From Catajapyx aquilonaris (lineage: Eukaryota), in assembly GCA_000934665.2 (NCBI GenBank), contig KZ538018.1, positions 1-64,000 of the forward strand: a stretch of DNA of 64,000 bases, in the 5' to 3' direction. A program made the translations under genes and the position numbers. This document shows, in pieces, positions 26 to 49,000 of this stretch. The notes beneath the pieces were generated by a model, which worked only from the letters and a program-made list of their open reading frames with translations, was not told the origin of the DNA and did not search any database. Every line of letters starts with the position of its first letter. Position 1 is the stretch's first letter.

Positions 26-1504
26 TTATATGAGTGAATCGGCTGATGGCGAGCGTTTCAAGGGCTGCATCGTGGAGAAGTATGTCTTCCCGTTCGACGT
101 ACGGAAGAAGGCTTTTTGCTTGGTGTAGTGCAAGTACATGGCGACCACGAATAGGATGAGGAGCAGGCCGCCCAGTATGCTTCCCACTATGATGTACTCT
201 TGCTTGTGCGCTTCAAATCCAAGGGTTGTGCTTATGGTTACGATTGCTTGACTTGTCTTGCTCGAGCAGAAATCTCCCTTCTCGAATAATTTTCCCTTCA
301 TCTCGGGCGGGGAATTGCACAGAGTCCTGTCCGATCTGTCCAGCGCCAGCTTCGAGCTGTGGATCTTGTCTGGTATCATGCTCATCAGGCAGCTGCAGAC
401 AATTGGGTTAAAGCTGAGGTCAATAGTGGCCAAGTGTGGGAACTTGTTGAAAATGTCTATTGGAAGGGTATCGATGGATGTGTTGCTCATGCTGAGGTAT
501 CGGAGGTTCTGCAAGGATTTTGGAATGTCTGATATCAGCGACTTCTGTAGGTTTGGACTGCCTTCGAGGTCCAGGTACAATAGAGACGACATTGTAGACA
601 GTTCAGCTATGTCCTGAACACCCGTGATGTACTGCAGCTCTAAGAGCCGGAGATGGGAAAGGTTCTTCAGGAAGCGCAGGTTTTGTAGGCGATAACTGTG
701 GATATGTAGGGACTCAAGCTGGGTCAAGTTCGCTAGCTGAGCTGCATGTCGTTCGTCCAGTGTTGCGTTCCCTCCCATCTTGGCTCTCAGGGTTAGGTCG
801 GTCAGTCCTGTCAGCCAGCTGAGTGAAGCATTGACGTCAACTTCTCCAGCGCAAAGAACTCGTAACTTCGGATAGGACATAGTTGTCAGCATCAAGTCAT
901 TGCCACACAGGTTAAGAGTGGTCAAATCTGGTAGGGACATGGGCAGGTCTTGGTCATCGGACAGTTGGTTATTGGCCAAGTTCAGCTGCACCAGGCTTGA
1001 AGGCAGACCTGCTGGTATGGTTGTTAGTTGATTGCCGTGGAGGTCCAATACGCGAAGGTTTTGAATCGGATTAAACACAGCTGCCGAGATACTATCCAAT
1101 TGGTTATGATCAAGGAACAAATCCTCGAGCTGAACGTTGGTCAAAAATGTACCAGCATCAAGGGTTGTAAAATTATTCCGTGACAGCCTGAGCGACCTCA
1201 AGCCAGGCAGCGAGTGGAACGCATCCGATTTGATGACTTCAATTCCACAGTTAATGATGGTCAGCGTGTGGATTCCAGGTCCGTTCAGGTTGGCCTGGCT
1301 CAGAGTGGGCATTTCGGCATTCCATATCGTCAGAGACGTTGCGGTTGGTGGTACGTTGGCAGGGAATGTGCTGCATTGGATGTTCATTCCGTCCATGTAA
1401 TTGGTACACGAGCAAGTGTCCGGGCATGGTTTCTGGTGATGCGAGGAGTCAGAGGCTACCGCAGCGATCAGTAGTGGTATCCACGCTGCTCTCATTAACT
1501 CCAT
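26..1504 (-). CDS. Extracellular leucine-rich-repeat type-I transmembrane protein (~492 aa), intronless CDS
   Basis: ORF shows a hydrophobic signal peptide (MRAAWIPLLIAAVAS), an LRRNT cap (CPDTCSC), many LxxLxLxxN repeats, an LRRCT cap (NPIVCSC...C...C), a TM helix (YIIVGSILGGLLLILFVVAMYLHY) and a short tail ending SLI. The start is placed at ATG 1504 (alternative 1495), just after the acceptor TTTCAG at 1506-1507; the ORF-track extension to 1573 is probably intronic. Candidate 5'UTR donor GAG|GTACGT near 1954. Confidence 0.88.
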   Translation of the reverse strand: MELMRAAWIPLLIAAVASDSSHHQKPCPDTCSCTNYMDGMNIQCSTFPANVPPTATSLTIWNAEMPTLSQANLNGPGIHTLTIINCGIEVIKSDAFHSLPGLRSLRLSRNNFTTLDAGTFLTNVQLEDLFLDHNQLDSISAAVFNPIQNLRVLDLHGNQLTTIPAGLPSSLVQLNLANNQLSDDQDLPMSLPDLTTLNLCGNDLMLTTMSYPKLRVLCAGEVDVNASLSWLTGLTDLTLRAKMGGNATLDERHAAQLANLTQLESLHIHSYRLQNLRFLKNLSHLRLLELQYITGVQDIAELSTMSSLLYLDLEGSPNLQKSLISDIPKSLQNLRYLSMSNTSIDTLPIDIFNKFPHLATIDLSFNPIVCSCLMSMIPDKIHSSKLALDRSDRTLCNSPPEMKGKLFEKGDFCSSKTSQAIVTISTTLGFEAHKQEYIIVGSILGGLLLILFVVAMYLHYTKQKAFFRTSNGKTYFSTMQPLKRSPSADSLI

Positions 1505-2561: not shown

Positions 2562-5534
2562 GTTTTGGGTTCGGAGCAATGGCTCCAGCTACAACAGCAC
2601 CCACATTCGGGTTCGGGTCGACAGCACCTGCTGTTGGAACAGGTGCGTATGATGCACAAAAGAGGCTTAGTTTCTATTGTATCTACATGTATTTAGACAT
2701 GCGGAGTATCAATGGGCCCTCTGCACTTGTTGAGTTGTAGACTGCTAATTAATTGCACATTTTAGTGACATCAAAAAATTAGAAAAACGCATGTTGTTTC
2801 ATAATGATTCAGACTAACCGTTACGGCCACCTTTTGTGCCTATGCAGTATTATCACAATTTTGTAGCAAAATTGTGCGATTGCCACTGAACTAATTTTCT
2901 CTCTCCTTAAATCAGTTTGTAATTAGGAAATATTACCTTTTCGTATATGGTGTAAGATGTCAGCATATGTAGCAAGACGCATTTATTAATTTGAAAATGT
3001 AATCTCTTGTAGGATTCGGCGCAGGAACTGGCTTCGGTTTTGGTTCTAGCACCGGGTTCGGTGCCCCCGCTGCCTCGACTGCACCTTCGACATTCGGTTT
3101 CGGAGCTGCCAGCACTGCCCCTGCCACAGGATTCTCCGGGTTTGGCAGTACCCCTGCGACTATGGGAGGATTGTTTACTTCCGGATTTGGTGGGACTAGT
3201 GGTGGGTTTGGTAGCGGTGGATTCAGTGGATTTGGTGCCAAAACCACCGCTGCTGCACCCACTTTTGGATTTGGGAGTGGATTTGGAGGCACAACCACGA
3301 CTGCTCCTGCGCTTGGCGTCCAAGGGGGATTTGGATTCGGAGGATTTCAGAGTAAGTGAATTGAAATTTTGATTAATGTTTCGCTACAAGCATGTTATGC
3401 AACATTATGAAGCAAATATTGCAGCACATGACATGCTATGAAAATTTCTTGGGCTAATAATATTGGTGTCTTGCAGGTAATTTCCAATCTGGAGTTATGG
3501 GCCAGCAGCAACAGCAACAGCAGCAGCTGATGGGAGTTCCCCAGATAAGCCCAACGCAAGCCTTGTACAATGCCTTGTTCTGCTGCAGCAAGTTTGGCGA
3601 CGAGAGAGACTCACTGCTAGCCAGGTGGAACGTTCTCCAGGCTGGCTGGGGGAATGGGAAAGGTTTGTCTTCATGTTTTTCACATCGGCAGGGACGTGTG
3701 TTGCGAGTGGGCCACGATATAAAATTGAGTGTTGTTGTCAACTAGCAGAAATTGGCATGAAATTTTCACTCATTCCAATTCCGACAGATATTCAGTTGAC
3801 GACATAATTGATGTGCTCTTGATTCACTTGCATAATATGTAATGACTACAGGAAGACGGCTGACATTATGATCGCAATGGCTTAGTTCTCGTAACACTGT
3901 CTGTTTCACTTTATGCTTTAGCTGCCAATTTGCATTTTAAAATTTACATTCCTACCTGTTGTGTAGGTTACTATGCTCAGAATGCCCCTCCAGTTGACTT
4001 CACTCCGGAGAATCCTTTCTGTCGCTTCAAAGCCATTGGCTACAGCTTCCTTTGCACCAACAAAACCGAAGAGGGCCTGGTGTCTCTGACAATCAACAAA
4101 AAGGACTCTGATATCAGGTCAGCCATAAACTTCGTATTGACGTTACGGTAATACGTGTCAAATAATGTCATATTTCATGTTTTCTGCAGAAATCAAGAGA
4201 ACCAGGTCATATCAGTCCTGAATGGCACCATGGGGAACAGGCCGAACTTGGCCGTGCGGATTGAGAGTGTGAAGCCCCTGTCAGAGTGCAAGTGCCTCCT
4301 GGTCGTTTACGTAGAGGAGAGACTTCAGACTGGTGCTATTCGGCGGGTGCCTGCCTCTGAGCTTAGCAACCACCTTCTGGGCCAGGGTGTCAGAGGGCAG
4401 CTGCAGTCCCTCGGTGTGGAGGGTGTGGTTCCTAAGGTAGCCGCAACTTCGGATCAGCTCAAGGATTACATGGAGAGGCCACCAGCAGGAATAGACCCTC
4501 GTCTATGGGCACAGGCTGCACTGGACAATCCGGACCCAGAACACCTTGTGCCTGTGCCAATGGTTGGGTTTGGGGAGCTTCAGAGGCGCATGAAGTGCCA
4601 GGTGTGTAATACTACGTCTCCATGTTCATTATACAGTGTAATTTATGCAATTTACTTCTGTTAGGAGCTTGAAACTGGCCTGCATCAGGGTCGACTGGAT
4701 GTGATAGCAGATGACATTGCGGAACTTCAGCGCAGGCATACAGAGAGCCTAGCGAGAATGACGGATTGCAGGCGAAAGCAATTGAATCTGGCCCACCGAG
4801 TGCTGAAGTTCATAGCAAGGGCGGAGGCTGGAAGACGAGGCGGAACCACCCTGGGGGAGGATGAGGAGCAGCTGAGAGCACGATTGGATGCCCTGCAGGC
4901 GGAACTCAGTGTGCCCACACAGTTTAAGGGAAGACTGAACGAGTTGCTCTCGCAAGTGCAGATGCAGAGTCAGCTCACAACCGGGGCCAGAAGTGGGACA
5001 GAAAAATATGCCATGGGACGTGCCGTTCAAGATGACATCAAACAGGTAAGCATGGTCCGATCTTTGTAATTAGGATACCGTATTTGACGCCATACAAGGC
5101 ACGCTTTTTTCCCCCCAAAAAATCTCCTTGCGTCTTGTATGCCATCAAATACAGTACTTGCGATACCTAACATGTACTCTTAGAACTCGACCAACTCGCA
5201 AGATTAAGCAATTTTAATTTGTACAGATAATCAGAGTCTTTTCCTACTTTGCTTTCATGTAATCAGCCCTAAAGTTGTGCCGCAATTGGCAATTTGGTTT
5301 TTAAAATTTTACTTGGCACTTGCGCCATTTTTTGACTCGATTGGACTTCAGCTCTTATTCTATTGGGTCGTACGATTGTTTGCAACATGTTAAAACATTG
5401 TCCGTAAAAAATTATCTTTTCAGTTCCTGAAGGCCCAGCAGGAAGGCATATCTCACCTCATATCCATCATAAAGGATGATACCGAGGCCCTCAGGATTAT
5501 CGAGAGTGGCCTGAAGGAGAAGCCGCCGCACTGA
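2562..5534 (+). CDS. Nup54: Nucleoporin Nup54 (FG-repeat nucleoporin), possibly 5'-incomplete; exons 2562-2642, 3013-3351, 3477-3662, 3967-4117, 4190-4601, 4665-5045, 5424-5534
   Basis: FG/GFG repeats, then Q8, then Nup54 core motifs (FGDERDSLLARWN, ENPFCRFKAIGYS, PPAGIDPRLWAQAALDNPDP...PVPMVGFGEL, PTQFKGRLNELLSQ, QQEGISHLISIIKDD). All introns are GT-AG with consistent phases; stop TGA at 5532-5534; ATTAAA at 5571-5576. Confidence 0.93.
5078..5154. mobile_element. Tiny Tc1/mariner-pogo-type MITE in last Nup54 intron
   Basis: Imperfect TIRs CCGTATTTGACGCCATACAAG / CTTGTATGCCATCAAATACAG with TA on both sides; a fragment of the same end occurs near 10938-10953. Confidence 0.6.
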
Positions 5535-5807: not shown

Positions 5808-6930
5808 TTACCGCTTGGCAGTATTGCTCACACTAAGGTCAAGAGGCACGTCTTGTTCGCTCTCAAGTTTTTTGGCATCCCCGTACTGCGTGTCCAGTGC
5901 ACCAACCGCTGCGTACCTGAGCAATTGTTGCGCATTCAGATACCACGATGGACCCACTTGGCAGTGCAATAAAAATGCAGCTGCGTCACTGTCGGGTTTG
6001 CTTTTGGGCAACAAGTCACGCATGTAATCACACCACGAGGTAGGGGGAGGGTAGCGGTAATAACAGTTCATGTCCTGATGGATGGTTGGAGAGGCTTTGG
6101 GTTCAGGTATGTCATCTTGCGGCTCAATTTTTGGTGTTACAACATCGGAGTCGTCTTCTAGATCCAGATCGTTGATGTCATCACTGTTGTCGTGGCCGCC
6201 TTGGAAGTGCCGATAAGTCTTGATATGCTTCCGGAGCGAACTTGGGTCTGTGTACCGTTTGCTGCATCCAGCGACTTTGCAGGCGTATGGCTTCTCGACG
6301 TAATGAGTCCGGGTGTGTTTGAACCTATCGCTTGAGTTGGAGTACGCCTTCCCGCAACCATCGACCGGGCAGATGTACGGCTTCTCTCCTATGGTACAAC
6401 ATCAAAAGTTATTCAACTCAAACTCAAATAATCACTTGTACGCACCTGTATGTGACCTTGCATGTATCTTCAGATTCTCCGCCCTGCTGAAACATTTATT
6501 GCACTTCGGACACTGATGAGGCTTCTCGTTAGTATGGGTCCTGACATGCACCAGCATCTTGTACCTTGCGTTGAATCCCTTCCCGTTCCTAGTGCATCCC
6601 CGCCACTTGCAGTGGAAGAGCCCATTAGACGAAGCTCTAGCATGCATCTTATTCAGATGTCCCACAAGCGAGTCCAACAAGTCGAAAGTCATTCCGCACA
6701 AATCCCATCTGCAAATACAAATAATTTTATAAATCCATTGTACCCAACATAGCTTAATACTAATTTTAGTGCTTAATTAACTAGTATTTAAAATAATATT
6801 TTAAACTGCTTTATTTTAAATTGTCTCACCTGCAGGTCAGTTTCCGGGTACTTCCAGCAGTACTGGTGGACTCTCCTGCAGAACTGTCAGCCTCCAGGTC
6901 ATCCTCCCACTGCAGAGTTTCCTCCTGCAT
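5808..6930 (-). CDS. GLIS2: GLIS2/sugarbabe-like C2H2 zinc-finger transcription factor (314 aa); coding exons 6930-6830, 6708-6446, 6388-5808
   Basis: Five GLI-type fingers with GLIS2-diagnostic strings: CKWRGC...[72 protein letters not shown]. Spliced length is 945 nt, in frame; C-terminal PLDLS motif. Confidence 0.92.
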
Positions 6931-7380: not shown

Positions 7381-7600
7381 ACTCACAGATGGCGCGCATC
7401 CTACTGCATCTCTCGAGTGGAAAGTAGGACTACATGCACGTTGGTGATGAGTCAACCTCGCGGACAAAGCCCACCAGGGCGCTATACACTCACAGATGGC
7501 GCGCATCTTCTCTCTCTGCACACTACCGCCGCTCTCAGGGGGAAAGTAGTACTACATTCACGTTGGTGATGAGTCACCGTGCGGACAAAGCCCACCAGGG
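7381..7600. repeat. Imperfect direct tandem duplication of ~100-110 bp
   Basis: ACTCACAGATGGCGCGCATC...GAAAGTAG(G/T)ACTACAT...CACGTTGGTGATGAGTCA...GCGGACAAAGCCCACCAGGG occurs at 7381-7479 and again at 7488-7600. Confidence 0.85.
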
Positions 7601-14089: not shown

Positions 14090-14223
14090 NNNNNNNNNNN
14101 NNNNNNNNNNNNNNNNNNNNNNNNNNNNNNNNNNNNNNNNNNNNNNNNNNNNNNNNNNNNNNNNNNNNNNNNNNNNNNNNNNNNNNNNNNNNNNNNNNNN
14201 NNNNNNNNNNNNNNNNNNNNNNN
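14090..14223. other. Assembly gap (N run)
   Basis: N run flanked by a G-run on the left and a C-run on the right. Confidence 0.98.
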
Positions 14224-15960: not shown

Positions 15961-16013
15961 NNNNNNNNNNNNNNNNNNNNNNNNNNNNNNNNNNNNNNNN
16001 NNNNNNNNNNNNN
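15961..16013. other. Assembly gap (N run)
   Basis: N run between an A-run and a C-run. Confidence 0.98.
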
Positions 16014-33630: not shown

Positions 33631-34290
33631 CTTCTGAATGCAAATGGATTATGTAAACAACCAGTGCAAGGTGGCCAGATGCAAAAATAGCGGGAACAAT
33701 GACTGGGAGCGGGAATACAAAAATTAATGTAATTATCGGGTTAAACTATCAAGTAATTGACACTATTCTATCTAAATGTGAGTGTTAATTAGTGGAGAGT
33801 AAGATGGAGGCTTTTTTTGGTGGTCATTAATGTACTGCAGCATTGCTGTTAATTTTCTTCGTATTTTCCCACTTTGCTGCTGTCCCTAAAACTTGATTAC
33901 CTTCTTCCTGCGGTCGTGATTTTCAATTAATAACTAAATAACTAATGGGACAAACTATGATCTGCGATGACATGGCACTAGTGGTGGGAAAAGGCTACGT
34001 GTACAAACGTGTAATGTGCTAGGAAAGGTTCAGTACAAACAAGAGCAGTTACGAACACGAGATTTTATTTCCAATTATGTTACAAGCTCCGTACATCGAC
34101 GAGTCTTGCTTCCCAGATTTTTTGATGTTGACGGCTCTTTCGCCGCATTCAAACAATAAACCCCCCCAAAAAATTAAAAGATGTCACACCGCAATCAAAA
34201 AAAGGTTCTGCATCTGTAAAGAGTTAAGTGGTTAGCACTTCTTGTATACGTTTTTAAGTGTATGGTGTGACATACCTTGCTGTTTTTTTT

Positions 34291-34764
34291 TTAAGCAGCG
34301 CACTTGCAACTCTCGCTGCATTTGGTGCCCTTCTCGGCGCACTTGCAGTTATCGCCGCAGGTGCATCCCGCGCTGCATTTGCATCCTTTGGCAGCACATG
34401 TGCAACCCTCGCTGCACTTGTTGTCGGCGGTGCACTTGCAATCAGCCCCGCACTTGCAGGAAGCGCATCCGGATTTGCCAGGGCACCCAGAAGAGCAGCA
34501 CTGGCACGTCGGAGCGCACTTGCAGGCCCTTGGGCAAGTGCATCCCTCGCTGCACTTTTTAGCAGCAGTGCACTTGCAATCAGCACCGCACTTGCAACCA
34601 GCAGCGCATCCGCATGTCTCGAAGCACTTGCTGGCCTCGCAGCACTTGCAGCTTTCACCGCACTTGCAATCAGCAGCTGTAATTAGAGAGAAAAAATAAT
34701 TAGTTAACGAGCTCAGTGTGTACAGTAGATGTCACTTACAGTGAGGACGAGCAGTATCAGCCAT
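34291..34764 (-). CDS. Long multi-module metallothionein, 136 aa, 38 Cys; exons 34764-34740 and 34676-34291
   Basis: Spliced translation MADTARPHSADCKCGESCKCCEASKCFETCGCAAGCKCGADCKCTAAKKCSEGCTCPRACKCAPTCQCCSSGCPGKSGCASCKCGADCKCTADNKCSEGCTCAAKGCKCSAGCTCGDNCKCAEKGTKCSESCKCAA*. Also: 63-nt GTAAGT...CTAATTACAG phase-1 intron, CAACATGG start context, AATAAA at 34064-34069 (minus), no signal peptide, upstream MREs. Confidence 0.93.
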
Positions 34765-34819
34765 GTTGAGTCTAGTAGGTTTGTTGTCTCTGATGAGTCT
34801 AGTTGAAGCACAAGTTGAG

Positions 34820-35003
34820 TACTGGATGGTGTGCACAGGGCTGTACGTCCCTTTTATGCGAATGTGCCGGGTACGTGCCGTGTGAAACGTTATGACGCCG
34901 TGCGCAGCTGTGACATCACTTACTAAGGGTTTGGCTTCATGCAATGTCCAATCGCATTGCAGCCGGGCGGTGTGTACACGACGTCACACGAGTGTCGGGT
35001 GCA
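34820..35003 (-). promoter_or_regulatory. Metallothionein promoter: TATA-like CATAAAAG and three metal-response-element cores
   Basis: Minus strand: TGCACAC 34829-34835, TGCGCACGGC 34897-34906, TGCACCCG 34996-35003 (consensus TGCRCNC), near-match TTCACACGGC 34877-34886; CATAAAAG 34851-34858; Inr-like CCAGT near 34821-34825. Confidence 0.78.
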
Positions 35004-37534
35004 GAGTGTTGACTGTACTCTGGAGCATTCCAGGAGCTTATCAAGGAGAAAGATATCACGGGTTGGAACCGCAAGATCACATGGCGTTATCCGGATTACT
35101 CGAAATAATCGTCTTTGTTTAGTTCTTGACCTTCATTCCACGAATTTTCTTGTTGAGGCGTACGTACGTGATGATTTGGTGACAATGGAGACAGGCGTCG
35201 CCGAAATGTACGAGTAATGCAATGTATAAAAAATTAAGGAATGTTTGTTTGGATCGACCTTGTACAGAGAGGACCAGATGAAATTTAAACAGTGTAGGTC
35301 ATGACATTGGATCAATCAGGCCATGTGGTATTATATGCGTGAGTCATTGGCTTAAGTCGGACGTCAGTTGCACTGAATTAATTAGCTCAAAATTTCAATG
35401 ACTCAATGATACAAGTTCACGTTAATAAATAATTGTTATTTTGTTGTTCTTCTGTCATAATAATGGCGTACGTGCTCATATAGTATTTTTTTCTGTACAG
35501 TGTACGCAATAAGTTGCAGCTGGCAAATATGGGAAACATTTGCGTAGCCTTGACTGCGACGTGGCTATGCGAACAGGAGCATACTTTTTCGCAGATAAGT
35601 TGGCGCATATTTATTTTTTTCATCGAATCTCCTTTTTTTGTCACCAAAGTATGGCATCTCAAGCATCCCTCGGTTCCTTGCACAGCCTCTTTCTTACTAA
35701 AGAAGTACGACAGAAAAAATTCTTGGAATAGCTAAGGGCCCACAAAACAGCGTAAATAATGCATTGTCTTCGAGAGTGTCATACCAAGTATCGGCCACTT
35801 TCCACGAAATGAATTTATCGCTTGCACTGGCATGTACTGGTTAATTGCACAATAAGACAGTATAAAATATTTAATAAGCTCAATGCTTTTCTCGATGAAT
35901 TAATTAGGAGAAAACTGACGTCCAAAATAATTAAAATATGATAATTTATTTCATATGACATTTGATAAGCATATAATTTATATAATGTTTGATGCACATC
36001 ATCATTATCTATTTGTAAACTTTACTGCAATTTAGCACAACACTTTATGTGTATATAGATAAATAATGATATGCACATGATCAATTATAATCCTCGCAGT
36101 GCCTCGCAGTCTAATAAAAGTTTCTTGTGACATTTCGTTGGCAAATTGTCAAGTTCATGTGACATTTAGACATGTGTTACTCATTGAAGATACTAATATG
36201 AATGTGAACTTAAGTCCCCAGATTATAATTATTCACTTTGCCCGCTGATAAGGAGGGTACTGATGTGTACAGTCTGAAGACTCACTGTTTGACATTGATT
36301 TGTGTGTATTATCCATACAGTTCCGTTTTCCTTTATCGGGTTTGAAATATCGCAAAATTCCGATGAATATCTAGTTGTACTTGAGCAAAATATGAGTTAA
36401 AGTAACATTTTCAACTGCTTGTCATCACGTTTGTTGGCCCCACGTATCCTCCGATTTTATTTTTTTTTGTTATTATTTTTGCCTGGTCACGTCCGCCGGA
36501 ACATTGCATTTGGAGGCATCGGGGCAGAAGAATGCATCCTTCCGACGGTTTCTTTTTCCCCAAAGGGACACCAGCAATTTCCCATTTTGACGTAGGAAAA
36601 GTTGCCGAAATCAGGCGGAGACACTCCCTGGCTTGTTTCCACAGAGAACAGAAAAGGGGAAAAATATGTTTGCGACATGTTGCGATTTGTACAATGCAGA
36701 CTTGCCAGGAGTCGGAATGCGCCTCTAGGCCACGCCCACCTTTTTCCCGCCAATTTTAAAATCGCGATAATTAATTTATGAATGCCATTTTGGTGCTGAA
36801 AAGTGATGGAATGAACTATTTGTGTATACATGTTTTTCAACATCCAATTGGCATTAATTTTCATGACTAAAATAAAAAAGTGCATCAAATTTTCCGAATT
36901 ATTCTGCCGGAAGTGTATATTGCAGTGTGACAAGTCGAATCTCTTGCAGTGTATAGCTCATAAGAAATGGACCCTTTTCTTCGGTGACAGTCTGAATATT
37001 GCGGGGGTTGGGACCTGAGAGAAATTTGGCGACATTTTCTCTCTCTATTCCTGGCAGTGCTCCCCACAGGTTGGATCTCTTTTCTCTCTCTCTGCTACTA
37101 CTGCATCTCTGGCAGAGAAATATGATTTTCAATTTCAACTACATCTGATAAGTGACCCTTCAGGCTGGGCTCGTGATTTACGCAGTCTGATAATTCCTCT
37201 CTCTTCCCAGCCGCTCTTTTTTTTTTTTGGGGGGGGGGGGGAGTGATCCGGAGTTTGTTGGAATTTCCCCTGCAATTGTGGGATAGCCTCCCCGAAAATC
37301 AGGGAGAAGGAAATGGAAGGTGCATAATTAGAGGTAGTAAATTTAGTCGGGGGCCATCTGCCACTGCGGTGATATGCAGATATTGAGGGCGAGTGAGGGA
37401 GAAAATGTGATTTTATTCGGAGTCTGCTGGAGGATTTAAAAAAAATAATAATAAAAAAGCATGATATGTTTCAGATAACTCTACATAATATTTTAGACTT
37501 TTTCTCGCCGACAAAAAGTGTTATAGAACGACCA

Positions 37535-46000: not shown

Positions 46001-49000
46001 TTCCTGTTTCCTCCCCCCGAGCCCCTAAATATCATAATCTGCTTAGATATTGGGAAACGAAACAATGCATTTGTTCCTTCATAATCCCCCAGGGAGCAAG
46101 GCCGAGCTATTAGTGCGCTTGTTTTGCTTTCTCCCCAAGAACATATATATAGGAAAGAAGACCTTCAAGTTTATATAGAAAGGAAATTTTGTCAAAGCGA
46201 GAGGAGGGACCCCCCGAAACTTCATTGAAAGCAATTTAAAGGATGGGACCTGCTCTCACGCGTGTAAGGAAGCCGTTCAAGTTATCGGAAACCTGTCCAC
46301 TTTCCCCTGCTGATATATAACCTCGATTGCACTAAAATTTTCGACTTCACTTCTCTTTATGCCCAATTTTTGTCAAAGAATAGAAAAATAATTACCGGCC
46401 GATCAATATTGGGTCTTTTACTACACACCCATTTTTCATATTCAGGAGAGAAAGCAAATTCTACGGGATATTTGTTAATAATCATTTGCAAATATAGAAT
46501 TGTCTAGGCGTGACTTTGTCCCTACACTCATCACCAACGTGCATGTAGTATTATTCCCCCTGAGAGTGGCAGTATAATGCGCGCCATCAGTTTGTGGCGT
46601 GTCGTACTACTTCAAAGTGGTGAGTGTTGCCAAATTTCATTTTTAAAGCATATGTACATTTTTGCAACTAATTTAACGCATTCTGTGCGTTGTATACAGC
46701 AGCGTGACTGCCACTCTTTAGTTTCAAAACATTAGCCTTAGGAACCGTTTTCATTTTGAGTGGGGGTGCTGCCGAGGCTCAAGTCACGCATACATCGTGG
46801 CTTCCATTTCCGAGCTGTCGAGGCGGAATCATTGAGAGGAGAAAAGGCCTCCGGTGCGTAAAAGGTTTACGATTGCGGAACGCATTCTCGAGAGGATAAT
46901 CCATATCCAAAACCGTATGGACGGGAAGGGGGGAGAGAGAGAGAGAGAGAGAGGAATAGAGGGAAAATTCTCTTGGTTTTCCGGATAGAATTACATGCCA
47001 CTCTGTGTTTGCACGCTGAGAGCAAATAGAGTATCCAAAAAAAATGTGTGCAGCCAAGTCAGGACGATTTTTTTGTGTGCAAATTTTAGCTGTAGTTTCT
47101 GCAGCATCTTTGTTCCTGTCCTTTCTCCATTTCTGTCGTCCTTATCATTCATTTGACACCCCGAAATTAATGTAGGCTTATGCACAGTCCCATGTCGGTA
47201 ATTAATCCTCGACTGTTTCGCGACTTTGGAAGCGCCTGAATGGTTTTGAATATCACGTCTCGCCCCTTTCATTTCTACATTTAAAAAAATCCTATTTCAG
47301 TTCTTTCCATTTTGACACAAGTACTTGTCGACAGAATTTTCACCAGAAAAAAAAGTTCACATCCTTCACTGTCGGGCTCGAAATATTTACTGATTTTCCT
47401 GGCTTTAAAATCGATTTCAGTGGTTGTTAAACTGTGGCGATAATAATTATTACACAACTGTTTCAGGCTATCTTGCACTTTAGCCACTAATTGCACGATT
47501 AGTAATCTATAGCAGCAGGGCGATACTGGTCGATGAGCAGTAAGTGCACTGATGTAATAAAAACACTGTCTTATATTCTAGCCAATCCCTTGGTTGGCAG
47601 CAGATTCTAAAACCAGGAAAAGAGCTGGGGGGGTTCTACAACCTCCTGCTGCTTTTATGGTGGGTAATGCAGCAGTTTGGGGAGAAAGACAAAAGTTCAA
47701 ACTCGCGGGAACCCCCAAACTGCCTGCCAGATCTCACCCCCTGAAATGGATTAATTGGAATGGGCTCTCTCACTATTGGATGGTTCCTGCGGGAGATCAG
47801 AAGATGAGCAAAAGCTGTGCCCGGGTACCAACTAAGAGCCTTAGGAAAGTGCAAGGGCCCGTCGTTTCAACAGTTTGTGCTGCCGGAGAGCAATAATAGC
47901 ATTGTTGTGGAAAATGTGGCTGATTTATAGACCAGTTGTGCCTGGTCATTATAGAACTATCATTGCAGACATTTGCTGGAAACTATTTCAACTTGTGGGC
48001 AAGTTTGCGCCCCCCCCCCCCAAAATTTAATTCTACTACCTTTCCTCATTAACTAACTTGTGCATAAATGGGAACTTTGGGATTCAAAAGGTGTTGCTCT
48101 TTCTCTCCCCCCCTTAAAAACATTTTGGCCCAGAGTCAATCAACGGGCCTTCACCATGGTTACAACAGACTCATTTGGTTTCAAGTTGGGGGTCCGGTCC
48201 TGCAATGAGTGTGCGTTGAGCCTTGTGCAATTTTAACTATTTCGGGGGGGGGGGGGGGCTCTTTCCTTCCTTTTACCACTCTCTACCCTTTCCCTCCCTT
48301 CATTATCATTTAATGACGGCTAAGTGGCACTTCATGTAGTCTACACCCACCCGTTCGTCCAAACCCTCCAGCAGTTCAGAATGTTTTTCAATACTTTGTT
48401 GGAAGAACCGCAAGTTTAGAGTTAGCGGTTTTTTGGGGGCGAGAAACTGAATAATTTTTCCGTGAACTTTGGTTGAAATGTTCATAAGTTGTGTTTAAGT
48501 GCCATTTAAAAAAAGTATAGTAATCAACAATGGCGACATCATATGCAACTAAAGACATTATGCTATAATAAACTAATAAATAAATACATACATATTATAG
48601 CAGAACTCTCTTTGTATGCAACTTACAAATCAACAAATTAATAGAGTAAAATAATCTATTAAAATAAACCTATAATGACGATGAGTTAAGCATATGCTGG
48701 ACTAACCACTACAAATGTCAGCACGAACATTTTTCATTCGTATAAAACGAGTCCTCTTAAGCTATATTCAGGCCTCTCAAATACTTCTCGCCTGTTAAAT
48801 ACCATTCATCCAACAGGTTACGAAGCATGTATACACAAGCAAAAGAAAGAGTGGAAAAAAAACCCTTACATATTTAGAGGTTATAAACGGTCACGTCAAC
48901 AGTTACTTCAGACTCACAGTTTAAGAAACGTGGCTTCAGTGATTTATGTTCTGTGGCAAGAAAGACATGCCATTTTTCTCCCTTTTGTTCGCGGATGACT

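What the first reader, a model, noticed from the sequence alone, without database searches (positions are those of the whole stretch)
34291..34764. Hidden long modular metallothionein (136 aa, 38 Cys) built from four 7-Cys modules
Seen: the GCACTTGCA-rich block is the reverse complement of TGC-AAG-TGC (Cys-Lys-Cys). Splicing a 25-nt first exon across a 63-nt intron gives a 28% Cys protein absent from the ORF track. It holds four copies of CxC-x3-CxC-x5/6-C-x3-CxC: CKCGESCKCCEASKCFETCGC, CKCGADCKCTAAKKCSEGCTC, CKCGADCKCTADNKCSEGCTC and CTCGDNCKCAEKGTKCSESCKC. They flank a different central segment (CKCAPTCQCCSSGCPGKSGC). Established: typical crustacean and insect metallothioneins are about 40-65 aa; much longer multi-domain MTs are known from only some lineages (e.g. 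certain gastropods, tunicates, ciliates and basidiomycetes). The module spacing recalls the N-terminal part of Drosophila MtnB-type proteins. Inference: an independently elongated, high-capacity metal-binding MT that automated annotation could easily miss. I cannot confirm novelty without a search.
Basis: partly seen in the sequence, partly recalled or inferred. Interest (0 to 1): 0.9.

Follow-up and report, generated by a model that had tools for sequence, protein, structure and literature searches.

The report
Unannotated long modular metallothionein gene
This is most likely an intact two-exon animal gene for an unusually long, repeat-built metallothionein (a cysteine-rich metal-binding protein) with a metal-responsive-looking promoter, which adds another case to an already well-known pattern of metallothionein elongation by internal duplication.

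Summary
On the minus strand an ATG at 34764 opens a 25-nt coding exon. A 63-nt GTAAGT...ACAG intron (34739-34677) joins it in frame to a 386-nt exon ending at TAA 34293-34291. The product has 136 aa and 38 Cys (27.9%), 15 CxC motifs, and no I, L, V, W or Y.

Evidence that the gene is real:
- Exon 2 has no Met, so a spliced start is needed.
- The two youngest repeats differ at 9 nucleotides, 8 of them at third codon positions.
- A TATA box, a Kozak-like ATG and an AATAAA signal are present.
- Three same-strand MRE cores (TGCRCNCS) lie within 240 nt upstream of the ATG. This is the only such cluster in the 64 kb.

The protein is five imperfect tandem 7-Cys repeats, and the "central segment" is a degenerate third copy.

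No sequence homologue was found in Pfam, PDB or two billion-scale protein libraries. The repeat spacing fits no domain catalogued for molluscs, chelicerates or myriapods.

Long modular metallothioneins are well documented, and since 2026 in arthropods too. Expression and metal binding are untested, and the host organism is unidentified. This is a new member of a known kind, of moderate interest.

The parts
34996..35003 (-). Distal metal-response-element core (TGCACCCG)
   Evidence: Matches TGCRCNC and the extended TGCRCNCS pattern on the gene strand.
34899..34906 (-). Middle metal-response-element core (TGCGCACG)
   Evidence: Together with the other two cores it forms the only cluster of 3 or more same-strand cores per 250 bp in the window (7 of 6375 sliding windows, all at 34761-34821).
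34851..34858 (-). TATA-like box (CATAAAAG)
   Evidence: Read directly. It lies 87 nt upstream of the ATG. A CCAGT initiator-like site follows about 30 nt downstream. The start site itself is inferred.
34828..34835 (-). Proximal metal-response-element core (TGCACACC)
   Evidence: It lies between the TATA box and the inferred transcription start.
34740..34764 (-). Coding part of exon 1 (ATG plus 22 nt; 8 codons and the first base of codon 9)
   Evidence: The ATG context is CAACATGG (A at -3, G at +4). There is no upstream ATG in the 66 nt before it.
34677..34739 (-). Intron 1, 63 nt, phase 1
   Evidence: GTAAGT donor, TTTTTTCTCTCTAATTACAG acceptor. Left unspliced, the exon-1 frame stops after 10 codons. 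No RNA evidence.
34291..34676 (-). Exon 2 coding part, including the TAA stop (34291-34293)
   Evidence: It encodes P0001 (127 aa), which has no Met. Cys codons are 37 TGC and 1 TGT.
34597..34668 (-). Repeat 1 (8 Cys)
   Evidence: Alignment A1.
34525..34596 (-). Repeat 2 (7 Cys)
   Evidence: Its DNA is 87% identical to repeat 4 over 62 nt.
34459..34524 (-).
   Evidence: It keeps the six Cys columns that are invariant in all five copies.
34384..34458 (-). Repeat 4 (7 Cys)
34294..34383 (-). Repeat 5, with an extra N-terminal CKCSAG unit (9 Cys)
34214..34275 (-). Possible 62-nt intron in the 3' UTR
   Evidence: GTATGT donor, CTAAC branch-like site 17 nt before the TTTACAG acceptor. Inference only.
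34064..34069 (-). AATAAA polyadenylation signal
   Evidence: It lies 222 nt downstream of the stop codon.

Best explanation
This is an intact, probably metal-inducible gene for a cytosolic multi-modular metallothionein.

Inferred mechanism:
1. Transcription starts about 30 nt downstream of the TATA box. An MTF-1-type factor bound to the three MRE cores is expected to raise it when free Zn or Cd rises.
2. A 63-nt intron is removed. This joins an 8-codon N-terminal exon to a single large exon.
3. The 136-aa product consists of five imperfect tandem copies of a 21-25-residue, 7-Cys repeat. The consensus is CKCGxxCKCxxxxKCSExCxCAAx, that is [CxC]x3[CxC]x5Cx3[CxC].
4. The 38 thiolates are expected to wrap divalent metal ions in metal-thiolate clusters. 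At the usual ratio of about 3 Cys per M(II), that gives roughly 12-13 Zn/Cd per molecule. Adjacent repeats probably cooperate, because 7 Cys is fewer than the 9-12 of autonomous domains.
5. The strong excess of Lys (18) over Asn (2) suggests a Zn/Cd rather than Cu preference, by analogy with snail metallothioneins.

Shown: the ORF, the splice signals, the repeat structure, coding constraint in the Cys frame, and the promoter motifs.
Inferred: transcription, splicing, metal induction, metal binding, stoichiometry and metal preference.
For: Gene anatomy:
- The ATG exon, the canonical 63-nt intron and the exon-2 ORF are all in place.
- Exon 2 has no Met, so the spliced start is required.

Coding constraint:
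- Repeats 2 and 4 differ at 9 nt, with 8 at codon position 3 and 1 at position 2. Over 21 codons there are 6 purely synonymous codon changes and 2 replacements. Binomial P is about 0.001.

Composition:
- 38 of 136 residues are Cys, with 15 CxC and 2 CC motifs.
- There is 1 Phe, 1 His, and no I, L, V, W or Y.
- The first 25 residues contain 1 hydrophobic residue, so there is no signal peptide.

Promoter:
- Three TGCRCNCS cores lie on the gene strand at 34828-35003 (24 in the whole window, both strands).
- Poisson P for 3 or more in 250 bp is about 1.3e-4.
- It is the only place in the window with 3 or more same-strand 7-mer cores per 250 bp (7 of 6375 windows).
- A TATA box, a Kozak-like ATG context and AATAAA are present.
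- The same layout of three MRE cores, TATA, Kozak and AATAAA is described for Daphnia pulex Mtn1 (PMC2234263, passages).

Repeat architecture: (alignment A1).

Literature:
- A high K-over-N ratio is described as typical of Cd-selective snail MTs (PMC7084494, passage).
- The 7/8-Cys t-12C units of Oikopleura bind about 3 M(II) but work best next to a neighbouring domain (PMC8283569, passages).
- Elongation by tandem domain repeats is recurrent in metallothioneins (PMC12800444 Discussion; PMC13168519 section 5).
Against: - I have no RNA evidence of transcription or of the splice junction.
- There is no sequence-based membership in any metallothionein family. Pfam gave 0 families at E up to 10. 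The best PDB matches are non-significant: Littorina MT at E 2.7 and wheat Ec-1 at E 0.18. phmmer against 1.84 billion representatives gave 0 hits. The word-indexed search gave only 2 weak bacterial hits, at E 3.7e-3 and 5.9e-3.
- No orthologue was found, so there is no cross-species conservation test.
- One MRE core lies between the TATA box and the inferred start site, which is an unusual position.
- MRE 7-mer cores are common in this window (57, against about 41 expected). Loose clusters on mixed strands also occur elsewhere, for example at 7392-7523 and 47010-47081.
- Three other frames over the same stretch are also open.
Confidence: 0.75

Rival explanations
1. A real, expressed, intracellular Cys-rich protein whose main role is not metal buffering. 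Examples would be a structural, disulfide-cross-linked protein of sperm or cuticle-forming cells, or a redox buffer. On this reading the MRE cores are incidental.
For: - No homology ties the protein to any metallothionein family.
- Metagenomic look-alikes with the same CKCGADCKC-type motifs occur in quite different contexts. They include a fusion to a peroxiredoxin-like domain in L001, a bacterial protein with a hydrophobic leader in L002, and a long repeat protein with a C-terminal hydrophobic tail in L003.
Against: - The composition is that of classical metallothioneins: CxC-dominated, Lys-rich and free of aliphatic residues.
- The three same-strand extended MRE cores next to a TATA box form a cluster found nowhere else in the window.
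Confidence: 0.1
2. A silent or recently inactivated gene copy. The ORF, the splice signals and the promoter motifs persist, but the locus is not, or is no longer, expressed.
For: - No near-identical protein is present in the 5.8-billion-protein collection, which includes transcriptome-derived calls.
- No transcript evidence is available to me.
Against: - The ORF is fully intact across 136 codons.
- All signals are canonical.
- The substitution pattern between the repeats shows past purifying selection in the Cys frame.
- The host lineage seems barely sampled in the libraries. The neighbouring 492-aa LRR protein has no hit above 41% identity (that one over 16% of the query; the top hit is 28% over 59%). 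Absence from the databases therefore carries little weight.
Confidence: 0.08
3. A secreted Cys-rich repeat protein, in which exon 2 is joined to an unrecognised upstream exon that carries a signal peptide. On this reading the 25-nt ATG exon is not used.
For: The exon-1 assignment rests on sequence signals alone, with no RNA evidence.
Against: - The ATG exon sits directly under a TATA box with a good Kozak context and a perfect GTAAGT donor in the right phase.
- CxC spacing of 1 and 3 residues, without hydrophobic residues, is unlike disulfide-knotted secreted repeats.
- AlphaFold2 predicts no fold: mean pLDDT 48.1 and no residue at 70 or above. This is a single-sequence model and weak evidence.
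Confidence: 0.03

Closest known systems
Mollusc beta1 domain = arthropod D1b domain (9 Cys, [CxC]2-C-[CxC]2), and multi-domain snail MTs (Littorina, Alinda biplicata)
   Same: - The order of motifs [CxC][CxC]C[CxC][CxC] is embedded twice in the protein, at residues 36-62 and 82-109.
- The protein is Lys-rich and CxC-dominated.
- It was elongated by tandem duplication of a Cys module.
- The best, though non-significant, whole-length PDB match is Littorina littorea MT 5mn3 (E 2.7).
   Different: - The spacing here is [CxC]x3[CxC]x5Cx3[CxC]x3-4[CxC]. The catalogued spacing is [CxC]x3-6[CxC]x3Cx5[CxC]x3[CxC] (PMC7826182 Table 1; PMC13168519), so the x3 and x5 gaps around the lone Cys are swapped.
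- The unit that actually repeats has 7 Cys, not 9.
- Snail multi-domain MTs multiply the beta3 domain and end in a single beta1.
- There is no significant sequence similarity.
Spider MT3L (five imperfect repeats of a 7-Cys D3 sequence), PMC13168519
   Same: - It has five imperfect tandem repeats of a 7-Cys unit, and one repeat has lost a Cys.
- It is a long form with high expected capacity.
- The authors also question whether a 7-Cys repeat is an autonomous domain.
   Different: - The D3 pattern is Cx3[CxC]x2[CxCC]x4C and is rich in CC doublets. The sequences seen in the supplement are not alignable with this protein.
- MT3 is reported only from spiders.
Millipede MT1L and horseshoe-crab MT1 (tandem D1a repeats), PMC12800444 and PMC13168519
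   Same: - MT1L forms are longer than 130 aa and consist of about four imperfect tandem Cys-domain repeats.
- They have the same overall size class and the same mode of origin.
   Different: - Their repeat is D1a, [CxC]4-C, with 9 Cys.
- They carry a 30-37-residue N-terminal region with a CC motif. This protein has an 11-residue Cys-free N-terminus and a different repeat.
Oikopleura dioica OdiMT2 (six t-12C/12C repeat units), PMC8283569
   Same: - It is a multi-modular metallothionein made by internal tandem duplication.
- It contains 7/8-Cys units that bind about 3 M(II) and depend on neighbouring units.
   Different: - It is 399 aa with 123 Cys, and its repeat unit is a pair of unlike domains.
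- It comes from another phylum, and no motif was shared in the tunicate supplement (0 of 6 motif words).
Daphnia pulex Mtn1 gene (PMC2234263)
   Same: The gene anatomy is similar: a short first coding exon, small introns, three exact MRE cores, a TATA box, a Kozak context and AATAAA.
   Different: - It encodes 59 aa with 18 Cys.
- It has two coding-region introns.
- Its Cys pattern is different, with CC motifs at the domain ends (PMC12800444 Discussion).

Membership tests
Metallothionein (functional superfamily) | Very high Cys content arranged in CxC, CC or CxxC motifs | tested here: met
   38 of 136 residues are Cys (27.9%), with 15 CxC and 2 CC motifs.
Metallothionein (functional superfamily) | Few or no aromatic or His residues, no hydrophobic core, no signal peptide | tested here: met
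   1 Phe, 1 His, and no I, L, V, W or Y. The first 25 residues contain 1 hydrophobic residue. These are the hallmarks used for Daphnia MT in PMC2234263.
Metallothionein (functional superfamily) | Low molecular weight (classically about 60 aa) | tested here: not met
   The protein is 136 aa. That places it in the class of 'large' or multi-modular MTs, which the field accepts as metallothioneins.
Metallothionein (functional superfamily) | Forms metal-thiolate clusters with Zn, Cd or Cu | not testable with these tools
   This needs recombinant expression with ESI-MS/ICP-AES.
Metallothionein (functional superfamily) | Metal-responsive transcription through MRE/MTF-1 (typical of animal MTs, not strictly defining) | tested here: inconclusive
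   Three same-strand TGCRCNCS cores plus a TATA box lie upstream, a cluster unique in the window. Induction itself is untested.
Any sequence-defined MT family (Pfam Metallothio_* models; solved MT structures) | Significant profile or sequence match | tested here: not met
   Pfam gave 0 families at E up to 10. The best PDB matches were E 2.7, 0.18 and none. HMMER's composition correction works against Cys-rich matches, so this result is weak evidence against kinship.
Mollusc beta1 / arthropod D1b domain | Nine Cys arranged as [CxC]x3-6[CxC]x3Cx5[CxC]x3[CxC] | tested here: not met
   The motif order is present, but the spacing is x3, x5, x3, x3-4, and the repeating unit has 7 Cys (compared).
Arthropod D1a / mollusc beta2 domain | [CxC]4-C | tested here: not met
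   Every run of CxC motifs is interrupted by a lone Cys after two CxC. The one exception is residues 100-128, which give [CxC]4 followed by x6 and a C, with different spacing.
Spider MT3 (D3 repeat) | Cx3[CxC]x2[CxCC]x4C repeats | tested here: not met
   Pattern comparison, and the sequences seen.
   There is no CxCxC motif and no terminal CC. The pattern is as quoted in PMC12800444.
Malacostracan and branchiopod crustacean MTs | N-terminal CC-initiated domain patterns (CCxn[CxC]..., CCxnCxnCxn[CxC]...) | tested here: not met
   The first Cys motif here is CxC at residues 12-14, with no leading CC. The patterns are as quoted in PMC12800444.

The most novel reading that the evidence does not exclude
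This could be a previously undescribed metallothionein type. Its 7-Cys repeat, [CxC]x3[CxC]x5Cx3[CxC], would have arisen and expanded five-fold independently of the alpha, beta1-3, D1a, D1b and D3 domains. The host would be an animal lineage, possibly a non-insect arthropod, that is almost absent from sequence databases. That would give a further independent origin of high-capacity (about 12-13 M(II)) metallothioneins. It would also give a natural test of whether sub-domain-sized 7-Cys units can build cooperative clusters.
Probability: 0.4. Interest if true: 0.45.

Novelty: new member of a known kind. Interest (0 to 1): 0.33.

Why it matters
If expression and metal binding are confirmed, this adds one more independent case of metallothionein enlargement by tandem repetition of a small Cys module. 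The repeat spacing is not in the catalogues I could read.

Such cases bear on two questions:
- How domain-repeat proteins evolve.
- How small a metallothionein module can be and still function.

It also shows a practical point. Short first exons and Met-free, low-complexity main exons let gene callers miss metallothionein genes. HMM-based searches (Pfam, phmmer) gave no significant match for this protein.

It does not open a new kind of biology.

Tried and rejected
- Whole-genome search: no genome is held for this window.
- RNA evidence: no RNA holder was listed for 34040-34860, so read laying could not be used.
- Homology searches:
  - Pfam gave 0 families.
  - PDB phmmer on the whole protein and on two halves gave only non-significant rows.
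  - The word-indexed search of 5.8 billion proteins gave 2 weak bacterial hits among 76 candidates.
  - phmmer against 1.84 billion representatives gave 0 hits.
  - The ESM Atlas top score was 0.77, which is uninformative.
- Metagenome scan: 8 of 67 pattern matches passed tblastn. The three I inspected (L001-L003) are unrelated Cys-rich proteins that share only CKCGADCKC-like low-complexity words, so I rejected them as homologues. L004-L008 were not inspected.
- Structure: the single-sequence AlphaFold2 model had mean pLDDT 48.1 and pTM 0.23. It is too poor for a fold search, which was not run.
- Identifying the organism:
  - The LRR neighbour gave no hit above 41% identity (that one over 16% of the query; the top hit is 28% over 59%).
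  - The Nup54 exon gave Limulus 53%, Mya 47% and Priapulus 38% as the only named hits among 12.
  - The Atlas search on Nup54 was uninformative.
  - Rfam and tRNA scans were empty.
  - The organism remains unidentified beyond 'animal, probably protostome'.
- Earlier-findings index: nothing for this genome, this sequence or its relatives. The 8 notes on 'metallothionein' concern prokaryotic or viral peptides.
- Literature word searches for six peptide motifs of this protein found 0 papers. A search for '136 amino acids' / '38 cysteine' found nothing relevant.
- Supplement searches: only generic 6-9-residue motifs are shared with opilionid, millipede and mollusc MTs. Nothing was shared in the tunicate file.

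Full report
**1. The observation**

Reading the minus strand of 33900-35200 and listing stop-to-stop ORFs confirms a 146-codon open frame at 34291..34731.

P0001 has no methionine. An ATG at 34764 (context CAACATGG) opens a different frame that would stop after 10 codons. It is followed at 34739 by a perfect GTAAGT donor. Sixty-three nucleotides further on, a T-rich tract and ACAG (34677) restore the Cys frame as a phase-1 junction.

The spliced CDS is 411 nt and encodes 136 aa:
- 38 Cys (27.9%), 20 Ala, 18 Lys, 14 Gly and 12 Ser.
- One Phe, one His, and no Ile, Leu, Val, Trp or Tyr.
- 15 CxC and 2 CC motifs.

It is the only Cys-dense frame in the window that matters here. A six-frame scan for at least 7 Cys per 30 residues returned six groups. 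Five are isolated low-density stretches, and the sixth (reported at 34257) covers this locus.

**2. Is it a gene rather than an open low-complexity frame?**

Four of the six frames are open across this stretch, so openness alone means little. Three things single out the Cys frame.

First, it is the only frame served by a start exon and canonical splice signals.

Second, the two most similar repeats (residues 36-56 and 82-102) are 87% identical over 62 nt. They differ at 9 nucleotides, 8 at codon position 3 and 1 at position 2 of the Cys frame. Over 21 codons that is 6 purely synonymous codon changes against 2 replacements. The binomial P is about 0.001. This is the signature of purifying selection on that frame after the duplication. 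The older repeat 1 differs from both at 20 positions spread over all codon positions, so only the young pair is informative.

Third, the flanks look like a promoter and a 3' end:
- CATAAAAG at 34858-34851.
- A CCAGT initiator-like site about 30 nt downstream of it.
- No upstream ATG in the 66-nt leader.
- AATAAA at 34069-34064.
- A possible second, 62-nt intron in the 3' UTR (34275-34214: GTATGT, a CTAAC branch-like site, TTTACAG). This last feature is inference only.

**3. Metal-response elements**

The 7-mer MRE core TGCRCNC occurs 57 times in the window on both strands, against 41.2 ± 6.6 in shuffles. Single matches therefore mean little.

Three lie on the gene strand at 34829-35003, within 240 nt upstream of the ATG. 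All three also satisfy the 8-mer TGCRCNCS: TGCACACC, TGCGCACG and TGCACCCG. There are 24 such 8-mers in the window.

In a sliding scan of 250-bp windows at 10-bp steps, 7 of 6375 windows hold three or more same-strand cores. All seven are at 34761-34821, which is this promoter. The Poisson estimate is P about 1.6e-3 for the 7-mer and 1.3e-4 for the 8-mer.

The consensus and its use come from the papers, not from my memory:
- PMC2234263 describes Daphnia pulex Mtn1 with three exact TGCRCNCS cores, a TATA box, a Kozak context and AATAAA (passages).
- The bioRxiv preprint 10.1101/2020.06.25.172213 uses TGCRCNCG as support for a new Drosophila MT (passages).

One caveat: the proximal core lies between the TATA box and the inferred start site. 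Mixed-strand clusters also exist elsewhere in the window (7392-7523, 47010-47081).

**4. Architecture**

I aligned five consecutive stretches of the protein (alignment A1). This gives a 21-25-residue repeat with consensus CKCGxxCKCxxxxKCSExCxCAAx and six Cys columns invariant in all five copies.

It keeps six columns, adds a CC doublet and has lost one Cys of the terminal CxC. The last copy is preceded by an extra CKCSAG unit, and the first also has a CC doublet.

The repeat pattern is [CxC]x3[CxC]x5-6Cx3[CxC], with 7 Cys. Seven Cys is below the 9-12 of autonomous metallothionein domains. The following are relevant comparisons:
- In Oikopleura, 7/8-Cys t-12C units bind about three divalent ions but give heterogeneous species unless flanked by a full domain (PMC8283569, passages).
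- The authors of the spider MT3 work raise the same doubt for their 7-Cys D3 repeat (PMC13168519, section 5).
- Snail 9-Cys domains bind 3 Cd each (PMC7084494, abstract).

By that arithmetic, 38 Cys would hold roughly 12-13 divalent ions, probably in clusters that span adjacent repeats. This is inference.

Lys 18 against Asn 2 resembles the K-over-N excess described as typical of Cd-selective snail MTs (PMC7084494, passage). That is also inference by analogy.

**5. Homology**

None was found:
- Pfam: 0 families at E up to 10.
- PDB: the best whole-length row that is an MT is Littorina littorea MT 5mn3 at E 2.7. The N-terminal 72 residues give wheat Ec-1 at E 0.18. The C-terminal 55 residues give nothing.
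- The 5.8-billion-protein word-indexed search gave two weak bacterial proteins (E 3.7e-3 and 5.9e-3) out of 76 candidates, and no copy of the protein itself.
- phmmer against 1.84 billion representatives gave 0 hits.
- The Atlas gave nothing above 0.77.
- A metagenome scan returned 8 loci. The three I read share only CKCGADCKC-type words. They are a repeat region fused to a peroxiredoxin-like C-terminus, a bacterial protein with a hydrophobic leader, and a roughly 300-residue repeat protein with a hydrophobic tail.

HMMER's composition correction penalises Cys-rich matches, so these blanks are weak evidence against distant kinship. They are good evidence that no near-identical protein is on record.

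A single-sequence AlphaFold2 model is unstructured, with mean pLDDT 48.1. That is what one expects of an apo-metallothionein, but it is not diagnostic.

**6. Comparison with catalogued Cys patterns**

- PMC7826182 Table 1 gives the mollusc domains: alpha [CxC]2-C-[CxC]3-C, beta1 [CxC]x3-6[CxC]x3Cx5[CxC]x3[CxC], beta2 [CxC]4-C, and beta3 C-C-[CxC]3-C.
- PMC13168519 and PMC12800444 define the arthropod domains D1a (the same pattern as beta2) and D1b (the same as beta1), the spider D3 repeat (Cx3[CxC]x2[CxCC]x4C), and the Drosophila, malacostracan and branchiopod patterns.

The motif order of beta1/D1b is embedded twice in this protein, at residues 36-62 and 82-109. The gaps around the lone Cys are swapped (x5 then x3, instead of x3 then x5), and the unit that actually repeats has 7 Cys.

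Motif-word searches of the supplements gave only short generic motifs:
- Chelicerate catalogue (474 MTs): 'CKCGADCKC' occurs twice and 'CKCGESCKC' once, in opilionid MT1s.
- Myriapod catalogue: 'GADCKC' occurs 9 times.
- Mollusc catalogue: 'CKCGADCKC' 4 times, 'CKCGESCKC' once, 'KCSESCKC' once.
- Tunicate catalogue: none of the 6 words.

Crustacean and hexapod catalogues were not available to me, so a match there cannot be excluded.

**7. Organism**

It is unidentified. The neighbours are animal genes:
- A 492-aa LRR transmembrane protein at 29-1504 (-).
- Nup54 exons at about 4.15-5.07 kb (+) (Pfam PF13874).
- A GLIS-like C2H2 zinc-finger exon at 5811-6401 (-).

The LRR protein has no hit above 41% identity (that one over 16% of the query; the top hit, Photinus pyralis, is 28% over 59%), and several of its named hits are insect proteins. 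The Nup54 exon gives Limulus polyphemus 53%, Mya arenaria 47% and Priapulus caudatus 38% as the only named hits among 12.

An arthropod or other protostome is plausible, but it is not shown. If the host were an insect, 136 aa would be more than twice the 62-aa average of the longest insect MT clade (preprint 10.1101/2020.06.25.172213, passage).

**8. Verdict**

It is supported by the gene anatomy, the coding constraint, the composition and a locally unique MRE cluster. It lacks any expression, conservation or metal-binding evidence.

Long multi-modular metallothioneins made by tandem repetition are a well-described, recurrent phenomenon in gastropods, bivalves, tunicates, fungi and ciliates. 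Since 2025-26 they have also been described in horseshoe crabs, spiders and millipedes. This is therefore a new member of a known kind with an uncatalogued repeat spacing. It is useful to specialists in metallothionein evolution but not surprising in kind.

Noticed in passing
window 29-1504 (-): A single-exon ORF encodes a 492-aa LRR protein with a hydrophobic leader and a C-terminal transmembrane stretch. Its best database hit is only 28% identical over 59% of the query (Photinus pyralis), and no hit exceeds 41% identity. The host lineage therefore seems very poorly represented in protein databases.
   Followed up: partly
window 4152-5069 (+): Two Nup54 exons in the same frame are separated by what looks like a roughly 60-nt intron containing a stop codon. 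This is the same small intron size as in the metallothionein gene.
   Followed up: partly
window 5811-6401 (-): An exon encodes GLIS-like C2H2 zinc fingers (PF00096). The GC-rich stretch with three MRE-like 7-mers at 7392-7523 lies about 1 kb upstream of it on its strand, and may be its CpG-type promoter region.
   Followed up: no
window 14090-14223, 15961-16013, 25773: Assembly gaps: N runs of 134, 53 and 1 bases.
   Followed up: yes
L001 152-640 (+): A metagenome contig has one open frame (stop to stop, start codon not determined) that holds a Cys-rich CKCG-type repeat region followed by a peroxiredoxin-like sequence (...VVLFFYPLDFTFVCPTEI...). This is a possible natural metallothionein-peroxiredoxin fusion.
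   Followed up: no
L003 469-1359 (+): A metagenome contig has an open frame of 296 residues, the first roughly 210 of which are tandem 28-29-residue Cys-rich repeats (CCAGGPCKCG..CKCGDNCSCCPKNKVS), followed by a Lys-rich stretch and a hydrophobic C-terminal tail. It looks like a large, membrane-anchored, metallothionein-like protein.
   Followed up: no
window 47010-47081: Three MRE-like 7-mer cores on mixed strands lie within 72 bp, next to a (GA)n tract. No Cys-rich ORF is nearby. This is probably chance.
   Followed up: partly
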